From Nitrospirota bacterium (GTDB lineage Bacteria > Nitrospirota > UBA9217): a DNA stretch of 64,000 nucleotides. Below the pieces are notes generated by a model. The model was not told the origin of the DNA. It did no database searches and saw only the letters and a program-made list of their open reading frames with translations. The stretch is taken from positions 1 to 64,000 of the forward strand of contig JAOUEV010000002.1 in assembly GCA_029858565.1 (NCBI GenBank). The letters are read 5' to 3'. Position 1 is the stretch's first letter, and every line of letters starts with the position of its first letter. Of this stretch, positions 44,608-48,846 are shown one piece after another. The translations under genes and the position numbers were made by a program.

Positions 44608-46083
44608 CTAGATCCGCAGCAGCGTTGGATCGGTGTGGGGGATGAACACGGCTCCCCGGAACTCCTTCATGAACTCCGGGTCATCATGCATGTGCTTGTA
44701 GGTGATCCGCTCGATGAGAGCGCTGGCGCGTTCGGCCAGCGACGCGTCCTCGAGCAGCATGCGGCAGCCTGCGAGGGATGTGTTGCCCAGTGCCTGCACC
44801 TGTTCAGCGGGCCAGGCGGGAACCATGCCGATCGCGGCCGCTTTTTTGACATTGATGCCGGTCCCGAGCGCGCCGGAAACGTATACCCGCGCAATATGGC
44901 CGAAGGATACGCCGACGGAGCGCGTGAGCGTCAGGAGCAGTGTGAACATGGCTGCCTTGGACCGCAGGAAGTTCTGTATCTCCCCCTGAGTGATCTTGAG
45001 CGGGCTTCCGCCGCCGCAGGACAGGGTCAAGGTCCGCTCGCCATCCGCCACGGATACCTGCTCGCCGTCCCGCAGAACGCCGGTCTGATCGATCATGCCT
45101 GCCTGGTACAATTCGTAAACAAGACTGATCATGCCCGAACCGCAGATGCCTTCCGGTTCCGCATTGTCAAAGGTACTGCAGGTGACCGCTCCTCCGGAGA
45201 TCGTCAGGTCGTAGATGATGCCCGTTGTCGCCCGTTTCCCGATCCGCGATATCCCTTCCTCCAGCGCCGGTCCGGCGGCTCCCGCGCCGACGATCATCCA
45301 GTCACTGTTCCCGATCACGATCTCGGCGTTGGTGCCTACGTCGACGAGCAGTTGTATGTCCGTTGAGCGGTCCATGTCCGCCGCGATGATGCCTGCGGTG
45401 ATGTCCCCGCCCACGTAGCTTCCGGCGTTCGGAAAAGCGTAGATAACGCCTTCCGGGCAGATCCTGATCCCGAGGTTAGAGGCGGTCCGGAAGCCCGGAT
45501 CACGCACCACCGGGGTGAATGGGGCGACCGGTATCGTGGCCACATCGAGCCCGAGGAAAAAATGGGTCATGATCGTGTTGCCCCCAACGACCAGCGCGTG
45601 TATGTCCTCGGTGTTGATCCCGGCCATGCGGCAGAGGCCGGAGACCAGTTCATTGACGCCGTTCTTCAGGACACGGTAGACCTCTTCGCCGTTCCCGGTC
45701 ATGGTGTGGTGGAGCCGGGTAAGGACATCGCTTCCAAAATCTATCTGGGGATTCTCGACGGTTCTCGCTGCCACGTCCTTTGCCGCGAGGTTGTCATAGA
45801 GAAGACCCGCGAGGTTCGTGGTGCCGATATCGAGCGCCACGGAATAGGAGCGCTCCCGGCCGATGTCGATCAGCCGCGGGACCCCGAATGCGCTGCTGAT
45901 GATGCAGGAGAACGGCCGCCCGCGCTTTATGACCGCGGCCGACTTCCGCAGGACCGCAAGGGGTATGTGCAGACCGGGGAGTCCCAGGCTTTCCCGCAGC
46001 CGCTGGTCATGGGCACGGCGGTCGGAATCCGTGGCCCGGGGAAGCGAGATCGATTGGGAATATATAAGGGGCTGCGTAGGCAT
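44608..46083 (-). CDS. ASKHA-type ATPase, RACo/DUF4445 family, lacking the N-terminal [2Fe-2S] domain
   Basis: LDIGTTN, NPQ..FGSDVLTR, SYVGGDI, DVGTNAE, AAGPALE, GICGSG, GNTSLAG. Confidence 0.85.
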   Translation of the reverse strand: MPTQPLIYSQSISLPRATDSDRRAHDQRLRESLGLPGLHIPLAVLRKSAAVIKRGRPFSCIISSAFGVPRLIDIGRERSYSVALDIGTTNLAGLLYDNLAAKDVAARTVENPQIDFGSDVLTRLHHTMTGNGEEVYRVLKNGVNELVSGLCRMAGINTEDIHALVVGGNTIMTHFFLGLDVATIPVAPFTPVVRDPGFRTASNLGIRICPEGVIYAFPNAGSYVGGDITAGIIAADMDRSTDIQLLVDVGTNAEIVIGNSDWMIVGAGAAGPALEEGISRIGKRATTGIIYDLTISGGAVTCSTFDNAEPEGICGSGMISLVYELYQAGMIDQTGVLRDGEQVSVADGERTLTLSCGGGSPLKITQGEIQNFLRSKAAMFTLLLTLTRSVGVSFGHIARVYVSGALGTGINVKKAAAIGMVPAWPAEQVQALGNTSLAGCRMLLEDASLAERASALIERITYKHMHDDPEFMKEFRGAVFIPHTDPTLLRI

Positions 46084-46148: not shown

Positions 46149-47741
46149 CTAGTCTTTAAAGCAGAAAGGGTCCTTTTCGGAGAAAATATCAAGACCGCTG
46201 CTTTTGGCTACGGCAAGGCAGCCCCCGCAGGCGATGCGGACGTCGCATCCACTGCAGGACGAAGGTCCGAGACGGTATCTCTGTGCAGCATCGGAGTCAT
46301 AGATCTCGCCGAGTGTTCGTTCGCGGATGTTCCCGATCGGTGACGGCAGCTTCCTGCAGGCATGCACCTCGCCGTCGGCAAGAAGGGTCACGAAGTTAAA
46401 GGCCGCTCCGCAGCCGTAGCCCGTGCATCCGCCAAAGAGGTCCATTCCCCGTTCGCGCAGGAGGACATTGATCAGGTTGTCCTTTGTGCCCATGACCGGA
46501 TTGGTCTCCGCCGCGGTGAGGTACTCTTCCAGGAAGCGGCGGTACCCGTTCCGTTCCGTCATGGCCAGGTTCGCGCCTTCTCCAAAGAGCGCCAGCCGGT
46601 TGAAATGGAAGGCATCGGTCCGGTCCCGGAGCGCCTCGGCAAGCGGGAGGACCTGGTCCCGGTTCCCGCTGGTGAGCGTCAGCATGACCATGGAGGAGAC
46701 CTTGAGCTCCTTCAGGAGATCGAGAAAATCCATGATGCGGTCGAAGTGGCCTGCGCCGCGGATGCCGTCATTGTGTTCCCGCAGCCCTTCGAGGCTCACC
46801 TGGAAGAACGAAGGCATGGCGATCGACAGGATCTCCTCAAGGCGCCGGCGGGGCGCGGGATTGCCCAGTATGGCCAGTCCGAAGTTGCGGTCCGCGGCGG
46901 CCCGGTAGATCTCCAGAAAATTCGGATGGAGAAGGGGATTGCCGCCGGTGAAGGAGACCGCGCCCTGAACATTCCGTGACCTGCAGAAGGCCCGCAGATC
47001 ATCGAGCACCCGCAGCGCGTTGTCGAGCGCGAGCGGAGAGCGGTCGCTCCGGTCGTAGCAATGCTTGCAGTGGAGATCGCAGACCTGGGTGATGTGCCAC
47101 TGGAGCGTGAACGACGGCGTGGACAGGAACTCGGCGTCACCGTCCCTCCGGCTGGTGAACACCGAGGGGTCTCTCCGGAGCAGTGACTGCGGGGCCAGGA
47201 CAAAGCCCTGCCGAACGGCCCGCTCGATCGCTCCGTCAACAGCGCCGATCGGAAGGCCCCCTTCGGCGGCGACCGCCTCGGACGGGATCTCCTCAAGGAC
47301 CATCTTAAGCACCAGCAGGTCCTCGTTCGTTGCCTGCCGGGCCCGCGGTCTGCCGGAGCGGGGATCGAACCAGAGCAGCAGCCGTTCCGGGGTCTCTTCA
47401 GGAGAAGCCGCGGCGCTCTCCGGGTTGGGTTCGAGAAAGCCGGCAAGACCGGACCAGCCCAGGCTGGGAACAGCCACCGTGGGATTGGCAGTGAGCCGGT
47501 CAACGTTGACCGGGATGCTGTCCGCCCGCTCGCTCAGGAGCGCATAGGCCCGTTCAAGCCGGATGAGCTCCGCAAGGTAGTCAGGGTCGGCGCCGGAGCC
47601 GGAGTCCCTGACAGCGGACAGGAGGGCATCGGGATCAGCGCTGCCCGCGCAGCGGTTGAGGGCCTGTTTCCATCTCGCGGGGCCGATGATGCGCTGTGTG
47701 GCGGCGTAGGCGGTCGGGCCCATGTGTTTGTTCGGGGTCAT
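46149..47741 (-). CDS. sbtM: Selenobiotic-family radical SAM/SPASM peptide maturase (SbtM, TIGR04082-type)
   Basis: FTLQWHITQVCDLHCKHCYDRS, FTGGNP, QVSLEG, GGCTGYGCGAAFNF, ACRK, C..C.....CGGC, DPFC; adjacent to the SbtA precursor. Confidence 0.88.
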   Translation of the reverse strand: MTPNKHMGPTAYAATQRIIGPARWKQALNRCAGSADPDALLSAVRDSGSGADPDYLAELIRLERAYALLSERADSIPVNVDRLTANPTVAVPSLGWSGLAGFLEPNPESAAASPEETPERLLLWFDPRSGRPRARQATNEDLLVLKMVLEEIPSEAVAAEGGLPIGAVDGAIERAVRQGFVLAPQSLLRRDPSVFTSRRDGDAEFLSTPSFTLQWHITQVCDLHCKHCYDRSDRSPLALDNALRVLDDLRAFCRSRNVQGAVSFTGGNPLLHPNFLEIYRAAADRNFGLAILGNPAPRRRLEEILSIAMPSFFQVSLEGLREHNDGIRGAGHFDRIMDFLDLLKELKVSSMVMLTLTSGNRDQVLPLAEALRDRTDAFHFNRLALFGEGANLAMTERNGYRRFLEEYLTAAETNPVMGTKDNLINVLLRERGMDLFGGCTGYGCGAAFNFVTLLADGEVHACRKLPSPIGNIRERTLGEIYDSDAAQRYRLGPSSCSGCDVRIACGGCLAVAKSSGLDIFSEKDPFCFKD

Positions 47742-47753
47742 AGGGTCCTGAAA

Positions 47754-47782
47754 ATTATAATCCCGGGCAGGATATTTGTCCA
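47754..47782 (-). promoter_or_regulatory. Putative internal sigma70 promoter for sbtM, overlapping an inverted repeat
   Basis: Minus strand TGGACA-17 nt-TATAAT, then an AGGA RBS and ATG 47741; overlaps atcccgggca...tgcccgggat. Confidence 0.55.
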
Positions 47783-47856
47783 TGCCCGGGATCATCAAAA
47801 GGGTGCTCTGTTACGTGTCTGGTGGTGTCTTCTGCTCGTTTGATAGTGCGACCGCA

Positions 47857-48051
47857 CTATTTCTTGGTGCCGCCTCAGCTGCCGCCGGGCGCCTTTTCGC
47901 CGCCTCAGCCGCTCTTGGCAGGGGCATGCTGAGCGTCACCTTTTTTACCGCCTCAACCTGAAGCGCAGCCGCCAGCCATGAGGCTGGTGCCCGCCAGGAG
48001 ACCGGCAACGCCGAGCCCCGCCAGGAACTTTTTCAGATCCTGTGCGTCCAT
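47857..48051 (-). CDS. sbtA: SbtA-family RiPP precursor, 64 aa with three putative selenocysteines
   Basis: AAGGAGGT RBS; MDAQDLKKFLAGLGVAGLLAGTSLMAGGCASG-U-GGKKGDAQHAPAKSG-U-GGEKAPGGS-U-GGTKK-TAG. In-frame TGA at 47953-55, 47905-07 and 47875-77. Confidence 0.88.
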
Positions 48052-48118
48052 AGGACACCTCCTTTCCCCTAGGGTGCTGAATCTACCTGCCCCGATGTGC
48101 AGGATGCTCGATAGAAAA

Positions 48119-48147
48119 AGGATATCAGCATGCGCCTGCGGAGTCAA
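48119..48147 (-). promoter_or_regulatory. Putative sigma70 promoter of sbtA
   Basis: Minus strand TTGACT-17 nt-TATCCT with a TG extended -10. Confidence 0.55.
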
Positions 48148-48207
48148 GGAAGGTATTTCCCGACGGCCCCGCTCCCGCGGATCGCGGCGATGAGGTATAA
48201 TGAAGAC

Positions 48208-48846
48208 ATGAAAACTCTTATAACCATAGGAATGCTCGGGCTTGCGCTGGGAGGTATGACCATGGCTTTCGCTGATGACAGGACCAAGGCCGCAGGCGCT
48301 CCTGCGGTGAAGCTTGAAAAAGCGACCGTTGCGGGCGGATGCTTCTGGTGCATGGAGCCGCCGTTCGACAAGTTGAAAGGCGTGATATCGACCACCTCGG
48401 GATACACGGGTGGCAGCACAAAGGACCCGAAGTATGAGGAAGTGTCAGCGGGAATGACAGGCCATGCCGAAGCAGTGGAGATCCTGTTCGATCCCGGCCG
48501 GATAACCTACGGGGAGATCCTCGATGTGTTCTGGCGGAACATCGATCCGACGGTGAAGAACCGTCAGTTCGTGGATTCGGGAAGCCAGTACCGGACCGCC
48601 ATCTTCTATCACAATGAAGAACAGCGGCGGATCGCCGAGGACTCGAAAAAACAGCTGGCAGCATCGGAAAAATTCCAGGGGAAGACCATTGTAACGGAGA
48701 TCGTTCCCGCGGGCACTTTCTATCCTGCCGAGGAATATCACCAGGACTATTACAAAAAGAGTCCGACGCGATACAAGTTCTATCGCTTTAATTCCGGCCG
48801 CGATCTGTACCTTGACAGGATCTGGGGCAAGGACCGCGAAAAGTGA
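48208..48846 (+). CDS. msrA: Peptide methionine sulfoxide reductase MsrA with signal peptide
   Basis: AGGCFWCME, SGYTGG, TGHAEAV, QYRTAIFY, FYPAEEYHQDYY. Confidence 0.95.
   Translation: MKTLITIGMLGLALGGMTMAFADDRTKAAGAPAVKLEKATVAGGCFWCMEPPFDKLKGVISTTSGYTGGSTKDPKYEEVSAGMTGHAEAVEILFDPGRITYGEILDVFWRNIDPTVKNRQFVDSGSQYRTAIFYHNEEQRRIAEDSKKQLAASEKFQGKTIVTEIVPAGTFYPAEEYHQDYYKKSPTRYKFYRFNSGRDLYLDRIWGKDREK

What the first reader, a model, noticed from the sequence alone, without database searches (positions are those of the whole stretch)
46149..48147. Hidden triple-selenocysteine RiPP precursor (SbtA) with its radical SAM/SPASM maturase
Seen: the ORF track stops at 47953, but the frame continues through three in-frame TGA codons, each in the same small-small-TGA-Gly-Gly context (SG-U-GG, SG-U-GG, GS-U-GG), and ends at TAG 47857. 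This gives a 64-aa peptide with an MDAQDLKKFLAGL leader, directly upstream of a rSAM/SPASM gene. Known: selenobiotic family peptides (TIGR04081) and their maturase (TIGR04082, SbtM) are linked to thio(seleno)oxazole formation. Inference: this member has three Sec-based core motifs plus one Cys, so it could yield a poly-selenoheterocycle peptide of unknown function. Standard gene callers would truncate or miss it.
Basis: partly seen in the sequence, partly recalled or inferred. Interest (0 to 1): 0.88.

Follow-up and report, generated by a model that had tools for sequence, protein, structure and literature searches.

The report
Triple-selenocysteine SbtA peptide and maturase
A small gene hidden behind three "stop" codons encodes a selenium-rich peptide of a known family next to the enzyme that modifies it; the gene is real, but three selenocysteines is normal for this family.

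Summary
Confirmed. Window 47857-48051 (-) encodes a 64-aa SbtA precursor (TIGR04081, 43.1 bits, cut-off 30.5). It has three in-frame TGA codons in SGUGG, SGUGG and GSUGG contexts and ends at TAG. It lies directly upstream of SbtM (TIGR04082, 694 bits, cut-off 350). The genome has selA, selB, two selD genes and tRNA-Sec.

This is a new member of a known, biochemically studied family, not a new kind. Of 75 unique SbtA-like peptides next to SbtM genes, 29 have two core Sec and 24 have three. All-Cys variants align Cys to the Sec sites. Public gene calls truncate relatives at the first TGA.

Three further points:
- The "leader" is a signal peptide, and Cys29 sits in a lipobox-like motif. It is more likely a lipidation site than a fourth core residue.
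- The SbtM N-terminal domain resembles, by fold only, partner proteins of thiooxazole-forming MNIO enzymes.
- Only the last UGA has the family's SECIS hairpin, which overlaps the stop codon. In this clade, 1 of 26 internal UGAs has such a hairpin, against 73 of 92 elsewhere. How UGA1 and UGA2 are decoded is unexplained.

Metatranscriptome contigs cover the whole gene.

The parts
47857..48051 (-). sbtA: 64-aa precursor MDAQ...GTKK, three in-frame TGA, stop TAG 47859-47857
   Evidence: Translation with TGA=U. TIGR04081 scores 43.1 bits against a cut-off of 30.5, over residues 1-26. It is the only leader-HMM hit in the whole genome.
48058..48062 (-). GGAGG ribosome-binding site, 6 nt before the ATG
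   Evidence: Read from the sequence.
48119..48147 (-). promoter-like site upstream of sbtA (TTGACT-17-TATCCT, 9 of 12, TG extension)
   Evidence: Consensus scan only.
47968..48051 (-). signal-peptide-like leader, residues 1-28 (n-region with KK, uncharged h-region, LMAGG before Cys29)
   Evidence: All 79 unique family peptides have this layout, and 50 of 79 have a lipobox-like motif.
47965..47967 (-). Cys29 codon (TGC), candidate lipidation (+1) Cys
   Evidence: The lipobox-like regex places Cys at position 29 in 39 of the 50 matching peptides. lgt and lspA are present.
47953..47955 (-). UGA1 (U33), context ASG-U-GGK
   Evidence: No family-type SECIS hairpin: model R1 scores 11.6 bits with the hairpin positions deleted.
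47905..47907 (-). UGA2 (U49), context KSG-U-GGE
   Evidence: R1 scores 9.4 bits with the hairpin positions deleted. A relative has Cys (TGT) at this aligned site.
47875..47877 (-). UGA3 (U59), context GGS-U-GGT
   Evidence: Followed by the canonical SECIS.
47843..47860 (-). SECIS hairpin AUAGUGC-GGUC-GCACUAU, whose 5' arm contains the TAG stop codon; the loop starts at position 25 counted from the U of UGA3
   Evidence: R1 scores 28.8 bits, E 3e-6. Predicted by alifold in both clade alignments, with one compensatory change in relatives. The family hairpin shows covariation in 6 of 7 pairs.
47932..47952 (-). proximal helix GGCG-N13-CGCU immediately after UGA1 (candidate non-canonical element)
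   Evidence: 19 of 26 internal clade sites have such a helix, against a shuffle rate of 0.11. Tentative.
47888..47904 (-). proximal helix GGCG-N9-CGCC immediately after UGA2 (candidate non-canonical element)
   Evidence: Tentative.
47754..47782 (-). promoter-like site TGGACA-17-TATAAT (11 of 12) between sbtA and sbtM
   Evidence: Consensus scan only.
46149..47741 (-). sbtM: radical SAM/SPASM thio(seleno)oxazole maturase (listed ORF reaches 47798; ATG 47741 is the likely start)
   Evidence: TIGR04082 scores 694.1 bits against a cut-off of 350. Pfam Radical_SAM and SPASM match. The fold is nearest CteB, anSME and SuiB.
47190..47708 (-). SbtM N-terminal substrate-recognition module (about 175 residues): helical subdomain plus RRE-like winged helix
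   Evidence: AlphaFold model with pLDDT 85.9. VIA-align gives Z 12.0 to 3dee, Z 10.3 to a TglHI chain, and Z 5-8 to RRE domains. Foldseek gives E 1.8e-5 to 3dee.

Best explanation
This is a self-contained two-gene sbtA-sbtM cassette of a Nitrospirota-type anaerobe.

Shown here:
- sbtA encodes a 64-aa precursor whose frame runs through three UGA codons.
- The genome has a complete Sec-insertion machinery.
- sbtM is a full-length radical SAM/SPASM enzyme of the SbtM equivalog family.

[quoted passage not shown] It converts the X-Cys/Sec unit into a 5-thio- or 5-seleno-oxazole (loss of 4 H).

Inferred:
- All three UGAs are read as Sec, and each [G/S]-U unit becomes a selenooxazole.
- The precursor is recognised through SbtM's N-terminal domain, a helical subdomain plus an RRE-like part.
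- The leader doubles as a Sec-type lipoprotein signal peptide.
- After modification in the cytoplasm, the peptide would be exported, lipidated on Cys29 and cut by signal peptidase II.
- That would leave a 36-residue membrane-anchored peptide (C-ASG-U-GG...GS-U-GGTKK) with three selenium heterocycles.
- By analogy with the thiooxazole bufferins, it would be a metal-binding or redox peptide of the cell envelope.

My odds: identity of the genes 0.95; all three UGAs decoded as Sec 0.8; export and lipidation 0.55.
For: Family and sequence features:
- Both HMMs score above their cut-offs.
- The CxxxCxxC motif and eight C-terminal Cys are invariant in 8 SbtM sequences.
- The SPASM fold is nearest CteB, anSME and SuiB.

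Sec machinery: selA 604 bits, selB 389 bits, two selD genes each with one in-frame TGA, and tRNA-Sec on contig C73.

Comparative evidence:
- SbtA-like peptides were found in 78 of 90 SbtM loci.
- There are 158 U and 32 C at core-motif sites, and 6 peptides mix both.
- In the 9-sequence clade alignment, the three U columns are conserved. One relative has Cys at site 2 and one has Glu at site 3.
- Third-position differences dominate after UGA1.

SECIS evidence:
- The family hairpin sits within +30 nt at 115 of 176 U sites, against 4 of 90 Cys sites.
- Loop starts fall 20-26 nt from the U of UGA at 120 of 127 sites.
- 6 of 7 pairs show compensatory changes.
- The window's UGA3 hairpin scores 28.8 bits. 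It resembles the hairpins after the TGAs of this genome's own selD genes.

Expression: RNA-library contigs from 4 runs of 2 studies cover 47835-48068 with 1-9 differences, and none of the listed differences falls in a TGA codon.

Export:
- All 79 unique peptides have a K/R n-region and an uncharged h-region of at least 12 residues. 50 of 79 have a lipobox-like motif.
- lgt and lspA are present.
- No neighbour gene family occurs in more than 8 of 80 loci, so there is no dedicated protease or exporter.

Literature:
- Chemistry of the homologue: PMC9204691 (passages) and PMC11002830 (passages).
- Bufferin precedent for a signal-peptide RiPP with thiooxazoles: bioRxiv 10.1101/2024.03.18.585515 (passages).
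Against: Against decoding of UGA1 and UGA2:
- They have no family-type SECIS hairpin. The covariance model matches them only through the linear 5' part, at 11.6 and 9.4 bits with 13-15 hairpin positions deleted.
- In the clade, 1 of 26 internal UGA sites has a SECIS-like hairpin of at least 5 bp. That is below the shuffle rate of 0.17.
- Folding energy downstream of these sites is not better than shuffles: mean z -0.47, against -1.70 for internal sites elsewhere.
- Textbook bacterial Sec insertion needs the hairpin close to the UGA.

Against export and lipidation:
- The lipobox here is LMAGG-C, with Ala at -3 rather than Leu.
- It was tested only with a regex recalled from PROSITE, not with a trained predictor.
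- 29 of 79 family peptides have no lipobox.
- For bufferins, the signal peptide was dispensable for modification. A signal peptide that also serves as the recognition leader is therefore not established.

Other limits:
- No activity, mass or selenium data exist for this organism.
- The N-terminal domain similarity is fold-only: none of 8 members hit a related Pfam family at E up to 10.
- The RNA contigs come from near-identical relatives and cannot show translation.
Confidence: 0.75

Rival explanations
1. UGA1 and UGA2 are decoded with the help of short non-canonical local structures: a GC-rich 4-bp helix starting right after the UGA and closing an A-rich loop of 9-15 nt. The clade's SelB would accept these structures, or they would slow termination.
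For: - 19 of 26 internal clade sites have such a helix, against a shuffle rate of 0.11.
- The printed helices include AGCG/CGCU (3), GGCG/CGCC (7), GGUG/CGCC (1) and GGCG/CGCU (2). The outer pair therefore changes A-U to G-C to G-U without an A-C mismatch.
- The 5' spacer after all three window UGAs fits the family consensus UGA-RGCGG-N-AAAAA.
Against: - The sequences are close relatives.
- The arms are fixed by Gly/Ser and Ala/Pro codons, so the enrichment may reflect coding alone.
- The same helix criterion is met at 16 of 17 last sites, which also have the canonical hairpin.
- Folding energies are not better than shuffles.
- No G-containing apical loop lies at the family's distance.
Confidence: 0.3
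2. The single terminal hairpin (47843-47860) recruits SelB for all three UGAs, acting over about 47 and 95 nt. This is outside the distance window of textbook bacterial SECIS elements.
For: - It is the only full SECIS match in the gene.
- It is invariant across the clade.
- Elsewhere in the family, one hairpin follows two UGAs 9-18 nt apart: hairpins at +31 and +13 in L051, L054 and L056, and similar cases in L079 and L086.
- Three peptides keep the terminal hairpin although the adjacent site is no longer UGA, while an upstream UGA remains (L034, L042, L046).
Against: - An all-Cys peptide (L044, no UGA) also keeps the hairpin. Its retention therefore does not prove use by upstream UGAs.
- Loop starts lie 20-26 nt from the UGA at 120 of 127 hairpin-bearing sites, which argues for a tight distance rule in this family.
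- Published bacterial models place the element immediately downstream of the UGA (PMC13188914, passages).
Confidence: 0.2
3. Translation mostly stops at UGA1 or UGA2 in this clade. The full-length tri-Sec peptide would then be a minor or selenium-dependent product, or the internal UGAs would be read by near-cognate tRNAs (Cys or Trp) rather than as Sec.
For: Internal sites lack canonical SECIS hairpins.
Against: - The frame, the TGA codons and the peptide sequence between them are conserved in 9 clade sequences with a coding-type substitution pattern.
- All spacings between UGAs are multiples of three by alignment.
- One relative carries Cys exactly at site 2.
- A product ending at UGA1 would have no core at all.
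Confidence: 0.1
4. The N-terminal 28 residues are only a RiPP leader or a membrane anchor, and Cys29 is a fourth modified core residue. The peptide is not a lipoprotein.
For: - TIGR04081 is described as a RiPP precursor leader model.
- The lipobox is atypical at position -3.
- 29 of 79 family members lack it.
Against: - Cys29 is followed by A-S, not by the [SGTN]-G that follows the great majority of core Sec/Cys sites.
- It sits at the end of the h-region at a fixed position: 29 in 39 of the 50 lipobox-bearing peptides.
- No dedicated protease or exporter is conserved nearby.
Confidence: 0.2

Closest known systems
SbtA/SbtM thio(seleno)oxazole RiPP system (Haft & Basu 2011; Lewis et al. 2021, Geobacter-type enzyme WP_083768621)
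   Same: - Same two families by curated HMMs.
- Same gene order, with the precursor directly upstream of the maturase.
- Sec sits in a small-residue/Gly context.
- A SECIS lies after a UGA.
- The literature already expects at least two SeCys per precursor (PMC9204691).
   Different: [quoted passage not shown] Many of the 80 best loci are labelled Nitrospirota, Nitrospiraceae or Thermodesulfovibrionales.
- The published motif is GGUG, with Gly before Sec. Here the contexts are SG-U-GG twice and GS-U-GG once, so Ser precedes the third Sec.
- Only the last UGA has the family hairpin.
- I could not read Lewis 2021 or Haft & Basu 2011 (not held). They or their supplements may already describe some of this.
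Bufferins (BufA with the MNIO BufB and the DUF2063 partner BufC)
   Same: - Cys is converted to 5-thiooxazole.
- The precursor carries an N-terminal Sec-type signal peptide.
- There is no dedicated exporter.
- The product is a periplasmic metal-binding peptide.
- The SbtM N-terminal domain has its best fold match to 3dee (Z 12.0, 157 residues aligned, rmsd 3.8; Foldseek E 1.8e-5) and to a chain of TglHI (Z 10.3). That 3dee represents DUF2063 is recalled, not tested.
   Different: - The oxidant chemistry differs: an oxygen-independent radical SAM/SPASM enzyme instead of an O2-dependent multinuclear iron enzyme.
- The recognition module is fused to the enzyme, not a separate protein.
- There is no sequence-level match to the family: 0 of 8 members at E up to 10.
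- The core is a short, low-complexity, Sec-containing peptide rather than a folded 60-70-residue Cys protein.
- Metal binding has not been tested for SbtA.
SPASM radical SAM peptide maturases CteB, SuiB, anSME
   Same: The overall fold of the catalytic core and the SPASM domain matches (Foldseek E 1e-10 to 1e-9). CteB also appears among the RRE-type matches to the N-terminal domain (Z 4.8).
   Different: - They make thioether or carbon-carbon links, or formylglycine, not oxazoles.
- Sequence identity is 15-18%.
- The SbtM N-terminal module has an extra helical subdomain.
Multi-Sec mRNAs served by a 3'-UTR SECIS in archaea and eukaryotes
   Same: Several UGAs lie upstream of one hairpin, which here lies at or beyond the stop codon.
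   Different: - Those systems use other SECIS folds and factors.
- In bacteria the element is described as lying immediately downstream of the UGA (PMC13188914).
- Whether the window's hairpin acts at a distance is untested.

Membership tests
SbtM (TIGR04082) | Full-length match to the equivalog HMM above its curated cut-off | tested here: met
   694.1 bits against a cut-off of 350, covering model positions 2-516 of 516. It is the only match above cut-off in the genome.
SbtM (TIGR04082) | Radical SAM CxxxCxxC motif and a C-terminal SPASM Cys-rich domain | tested here: met
   The sequence contains CDLHCKHC. C210, C214, C217 and eight C-terminal Cys are invariant in 8 sequences. PF04055, PF13186 and TIGR04085 match.
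SbtM (TIGR04082) | Converts Cys/Sec of SbtA into a thio(seleno)oxazole | not testable with these tools
   Known only for a homologue in vitro (PMC9204691 and PMC11002830, passages).
SbtA (TIGR04081) | Leader matches the HMM above cut-off, and the gene lies next to sbtM | tested here: met
   43.1 bits against a cut-off of 30.5, over residues 1-26. The stop codon lies 115 nt upstream of the sbtM ATG at 47741.
SbtA (TIGR04081) | Core with Sec or Cys in a small-residue/Gly motif | tested here: met
   The contexts are SGUGG, SGUGG and GSUGG. The commonest family contexts are SxSG, GxGG and GxSG.
Bacterial selenoprotein gene | selA, selB, selD and tRNA-Sec present in the genome | tested here: met
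Bacterial selenoprotein gene | Cys in homologues at the position of the UGA | tested here: met
   32 Cys against 158 Sec at core sites; 7 peptides have no core Sec; one clade relative has Cys at site 2.
Bacterial selenoprotein gene | SECIS hairpin shortly downstream of each UGA | tested here: inconclusive
   UGA3 meets it (28.8 bits). UGA1 and UGA2 have no family-type hairpin, only short proximal helices.
Bacterial lipoprotein | Signal peptide ending in a lipobox with an invariant Cys | tested here: inconclusive
   LMAGG-C29 fits a permissive regex recalled from PROSITE PS51257, as do 50 of 79 family peptides. No trained predictor was available, and Ala at -3 is atypical.
Bacterial lipoprotein | lgt and lspA present | tested here: met
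   Both lie on contig C66 and score above cut-off.
DUF2063/TglI-type partner proteins of MNIO enzymes | Sequence match to the family | tested here: not met
   0 of 8 SbtM N-terminal domains match such a Pfam family at E up to 10. A profile search against PDB sequences found nothing relevant.
DUF2063/TglI-type partner proteins of MNIO enzymes | Two-subdomain fold (helical part plus RRE-like winged helix) | tested here: met
   Z 12.0 to 3dee (157 aligned, rmsd 3.8) and Z 10.3 to 8hci_C (166 aligned). Single RRE domains score Z 5-8 over residues 70-175 only. Foldseek E 1.8e-5, TM 0.63. The model has pLDDT 85.9 from an 8-sequence alignment.

The most novel reading that the evidence does not exclude
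In this Nitrospirota clade, one SECIS hairpin overlapping the stop codon would direct selenocysteine insertion at every UGA of the small mRNA. That includes codons about 47 and 95 nt upstream, well outside the 20-26 nt seen in the rest of the family. Alternatively, the internal UGAs would use a new minimal SECIS type (a 4-bp helix abutting the UGA). Either would be a bacterial Sec-decoding mode not in the textbook model.
Probability: 0.25. Interest if true: 0.8.

Novelty: new member of a known kind. Interest (0 to 1): 0.45.

Why it matters
SbtA/SbtM is the only radical-SAM RiPP system reported to act on selenocysteine. According to the passages read, its fully formed natural product and its biological role are not known.

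This window adds little to the chemistry, but the survey around it gives three testable leads.
- The precursor looks like an exported, often lipid-anchored peptide. This says where to look for the product: membrane or envelope fractions, with the leader removed by signal peptidase.
- The maturase carries a recognition module of the same fold as the partners of oxygen-dependent thiooxazole-forming enzymes. This suggests an anaerobic counterpart of the bufferin-type metallophores.
- A clade with conserved internal UGAs but only one SECIS hairpin is a natural test case for the distance rule of bacterial Sec insertion.

The case also shows that standard annotation loses the whole core of these peptides.

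Tried and rejected
Rfam search. Searching 47700-48200 at E up to 10 gave only chance lncRNA or snoRNA rows, all far below their gathering scores, and no SECIS family.

Whole-region fold. Folding 47790-47965 gave z -1.41, which is not remarkable.

Neighbouring genes as cluster members.
- The RACo-like gene is next to sbtM in 6 of 80 loci and MsrA in 7 of 80, all close relatives.
- De novo clustering found no neighbour family in more than 8 of 80 loci.
- I therefore dropped them from the system.

Terminal hairpin as a terminator. No terminator-like site was found and no U-run follows the hairpin.

Retention of the terminal hairpin as proof of long-range action. I rejected it as decisive, because an all-Cys peptide (L044) keeps the hairpin too.

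RNA coverage. sbtM has almost no cover in the four RNA runs. By the tool's own caveats this says nothing about relative expression, and I draw no conclusion from it.

Habitat.

Pfam on the peptide. There was no hit in the local copy, although the public database lists PF27804 for relatives.

Not run. Complex prediction was not used: a precursor-maturase pair is a textbook pair, and a pass would not change my odds.

Caveats on my own counts.
- The 'clade' of 12 loci used was drawn up after one search had shown where the hairpin-less sites lie. It coincides with the loci closest to the window by SbtM identity and leader type. The contrast is still partly circular, and the sequences are close kin.
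- Alignment A3 was built from 67 of 107 sites pre-selected for having a hairpin. Its percentage of paired cells is therefore inflated, and only the compensatory changes carry weight.
- Peptides longer than 130 aa (read-through artefacts) and shorter than 40 aa were dropped before the counts.
- 12 of 90 loci gave no SbtA-like hit. Several of them have under 400 nt upstream of sbtM.
Full report
**The observation.** On the minus strand, an ATG at 48051 follows a GGAGG ribosome site. It opens a frame that passes TGA codons at 47955-47953, 47907-47905 and 47877-47875 and ends at TAG 47859-47857. The table-11 ORF list ends at 47953. The next gene downstream (46149-47798, likely start ATG 47741) is a radical SAM/SPASM protein.

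**Family assignment.**
- The peptide's first 26 residues match TIGR04081 (SbtA precursor) at 43.1 bits, cut-off 30.5.
- The enzyme matches TIGR04082 (SbtM) over its whole length at 694.1 bits, cut-off 350. The next best radical SAM family scores 145 bits, below its own cut-off.
- Pfam sees Radical_SAM and SPASM.
- In an 8-sequence alignment, the CxxxCxxC cysteines and eight C-terminal cysteines are invariant.
- The predicted fold is closest to CteB, anSME and SuiB.
- It is the only SbtM and the only SbtA leader in the genome.

**Can the organism read UGA as Sec?** The genome (100% complete by markers) has all the parts:
- selA and selB lie side by side on one contig.
- There are two selD genes, each with one in-frame TGA.
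- tRNA-Sec (anticodon tca) is present.
- After the selD TGAs, hairpins start at +13 with loops AGGUC and GGC.

**Comparative evidence.**
- SbtM is above cut-off in 10 of 41 related genomes, counting the window's own. Within its own family it is in 7 of 24.
- A scan of one genome per species found 256 relatives. The 80 best are labelled mostly Nitrospirota or Nitrospiraceae and Desulfobacterota groups.
- Reading TGA through, a leader HMM found SbtA-like peptides in 78 of 90 loci, 89 hits in all.
- Among 75 unique peptides of 40-130 residues, the number of core-motif Sec is 0 in 7, 1 in 11, 2 in 29, 3 in 24, 4 in 3 and 5 in 1. There are 158 Sec and 32 Cys core sites, and 6 peptides mix both.
- The window's tri-Sec layout is therefore the second most common class.
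- In the alignment of 9 close relatives, the three U columns are conserved. One peptide has Cys at the second site and one has Glu at the third. After the first U, codon positions 1/2/3 differ 299/189/444 times in 1123 codon pairs, a coding pattern.
- In the public protein collection, 14 relatives were found. Seven are 35-36 aa long, and 12 cover only 47-50% of the query, that is, the leader up to the first TGA. Some are named 'radical SAM modification target selenobiotic family peptide'.

**What is already known.**
[quoted passage not shown] It says Sec sits in a GGUG motif, and that the pair seems limited to Geobacter and Desulfobacteria.
- It also reports that SbtM removes four hydrogens from a Gly-Cys or Gly-Sec unit to give a thio(seleno)oxazole. 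The fully formed products and functions of such systems are described as not known (PMC9204691, passages; also PMC11002830, passages).
- The primary papers (Lewis et al. 2021; Haft and Basu 2011) are not held, and I did not see their supplements.
- On this basis the finding is a new member of a known kind.

**The leader is a signal peptide.**
- All 79 unique peptides have a K/R-containing n-region and an uncharged stretch of at least 12 residues.
- 50 of 79 then have a lipobox-like motif, tested with a regex recalled from PROSITE. The Cys is at position 29 in 39 of them, as in the window (LMAGG-C29).
- Most of the other 29 end the h-region with small residues, such as AWA-A, AQA-A or IAA-E.
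- lgt and lspA are present.
- No protease, exporter or other gene is conserved next to the pair. The window's RACo-like gene and msrA accompany sbtM in only 6 and 7 of 80 loci, and the best de novo neighbour family occurs in 8 of 80.
- I infer that general secretion and signal peptidase take the place of a dedicated exporter and leader protease. I also infer that Cys29 is the lipidation site rather than a fourth core residue.
- The precedent is the bufferins: thiooxazole RiPPs with Sec signal peptides that bind copper in the periplasm (bioRxiv 10.1101/2024.03.18.585515, passages).

**The maturase's N-terminal domain.**
- Residues 1-175 are predicted with confidence (pLDDT 85.9). They form a helical subdomain followed by a beta-beta-alpha-alpha-alpha unit.
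- Against about 48,000 solved chains, the best matches are 3dee (Z 12.0, 157 residues, rmsd 3.8) and a chain of the TglHI holoenzyme (Z 10.3, 166 residues).
- Classical RiPP recognition elements follow at Z 5-8 on residues 70-175 only: MibB, TbtB, lasso B1 proteins, NisB, MccB, CteB and PqqD.
- Foldseek agrees for 3dee (E 1.8e-5, TM 0.63).
- From memory, 3dee is the structural representative of DUF2063. The bufferin paper names that family as the partner of the thiooxazole-forming iron enzyme, with an RRE-related C-terminal part.
- There is no sequence-level match.
- So the anaerobic and the oxygen-dependent routes to thiooxazoles may share a recognition module. This is a fold-level lead, not a shown homology.

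**SECIS elements.**
- Across the family, a hairpin of the type GGUGC-AGGU(A/G)-GCACC follows the UGA. With a narrow pattern it is found within +30 nt at 115 of 176 Sec sites, against 4 of 90 Cys sites.
- Loops are mostly AGGUA, AGGUG, GGUC and GGU. They start 20-26 nt from the U of UGA at 120 of 127 sites.
- In a 67-sequence alignment, 6 of 7 pairs show compensatory changes: 86 double changes against 26 in shuffles. The sites were pre-selected for a hairpin.
- The window's UGA3 has this element: AUAGUGC-GGUC-GCACUAU at 47860-47843, with the TAG stop inside its 5' arm. It scores 28.8 bits, E 3e-6, with a model built from other clades.
- UGA1 and UGA2 match the model only through the linear spacer (UGA-GGCGG-N-AAAAA). 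The hairpin is deleted, and the scores are 11.6 and 9.4 bits.
- This holds for the whole clade of closest relatives, as the table shows.

| Site class | Sites with a SECIS-like hairpin of at least 5 bp |
|---|---|
| Clade, last UGA | 17 of 17 |
| Clade, internal UGA | 1 of 26 (shuffle rate 0.17) |
| Other clades, internal UGA | 73 of 92 |
| Other clades, last UGA | 40 of 41 |

- Downstream folding energies agree: mean z -0.47 for clade internal sites, against -1.70 for internal sites elsewhere.
- What the internal sites do have is a GC-rich 4-bp helix starting right after the UGA, in 19 of 26 against a shuffle rate of 0.11. The outer pair varies A-U, G-C or G-U. The same criterion is met at 16 of 17 last sites, and the arms are Gly/Ser and Ala/Pro codons, so this is tentative.
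- Elsewhere in the family, one hairpin sometimes follows two UGAs 9-18 nt apart.
- Three peptides keep the terminal hairpin after losing the adjacent UGA. So does one all-Cys peptide, which weakens that argument. Four of six all-Cys peptides have no terminal hairpin, and a fifth has only an unrelated one.
- I conclude that the internal UGAs are translated, on the strength of the conservation. How SelB is recruited there is unexplained.

**Expression.** Four metatranscriptome runs from two studies contain contigs of about 200-260 nt that cover 47835-48068. That span is the whole sbtA with its hairpin. The contigs show 1-9 differences, and none of the listed differences lies in a TGA codon; one turns the Gly after U59 into Ser. 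They come from near-identical relatives, since their flanks diverge, and they show RNA presence at most. A promoter-like site lies upstream of sbtA, and a stronger one (11 of 12) lies between sbtA and sbtM.

**Verdict.**
- Novelty: new member of a known kind.
- The survey adds three leads that I did not find in the papers I could read (searches; key primary papers not seen). These are the signal-peptide or lipoprotein nature of the leader, the DUF2063/TglI-like fold of the recognition domain, and a clade whose internal Sec codons lack the family's SECIS.

Noticed in passing
window 44608-46083 (-): An ASKHA protein resembling the middle and C-terminal domains of the corrinoid reductive activator RACo/AcsV (341 bits, cut-off 800; profile positions 145-629 of 632). 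It therefore lacks the N-terminal part. It lies 65 nt downstream of sbtM and is syntenic only in close relatives (6 of 80 loci).
   Followed up: partly
window 48130-48846 (+): MsrA (TIGR00401, 201 bits, cut-off 108), divergent from sbtA. The domain starts at residue 63, after a hydrophobic N-terminal stretch, so it may be an exported form. It is syntenic in 7 of 80 loci only.
   Followed up: partly
G000 contigs C3:2376-3290 and C14:90529-91446 (L015, L016): There are two selD genes, each with one in-frame TGA (GAGU-ACK and TCGU-AAK contexts). Hairpins follow at +13.
   Followed up: partly
window 47754-47782 (-): A near-consensus promoter-like site (TGGACA-17-TATAAT, 11 of 12) ends only 13 nt before the sbtM ATG at 47741. 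No Shine-Dalgarno sequence lies in between, so sbtM may be read from a nearly leaderless transcript of its own.
   Followed up: no
L023, L031-L036 (relatives): Close relatives carry two tandem sbtA genes before sbtM. One is the lipobox type with three Sec, like the window's. The other is a longer type without Cys and with two Sec, whose leader ends in IAA-E or MAA-E. The window's genome has only the first.
   Followed up: partly
L027, L028 (same phylum, another family): These are short SbtM homologues: open frames of 354-359 aa that match only model positions 195-516, yet score about 530 bits. They lack the N-terminal recognition domain, and no SbtA-like leader was found in these loci.
   Followed up: no
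L051, L054, L056, L079, L086: Pairs of UGA codons only 9-18 nt apart are followed by a single SECIS hairpin. One hairpin appears to serve two Sec codons at different distances.
   Followed up: partly
L044 (peptide at frame +2, position 941): An all-Cys SbtA paralogue keeps the stop-codon-overlapping hairpin AUAGUGCA-GUU-UGCACUAU although it has no UGA. The hairpin may have a second role, or the Sec-to-Cys change may be recent.
   Followed up: no
window 47842-47860 and 48068: RNA-library contigs of relatives match the window only between about 47835 and 48068, and then diverge (loose ends at 47842 and 48068). The sbtA unit is more conserved than its flanks.
   Followed up: no
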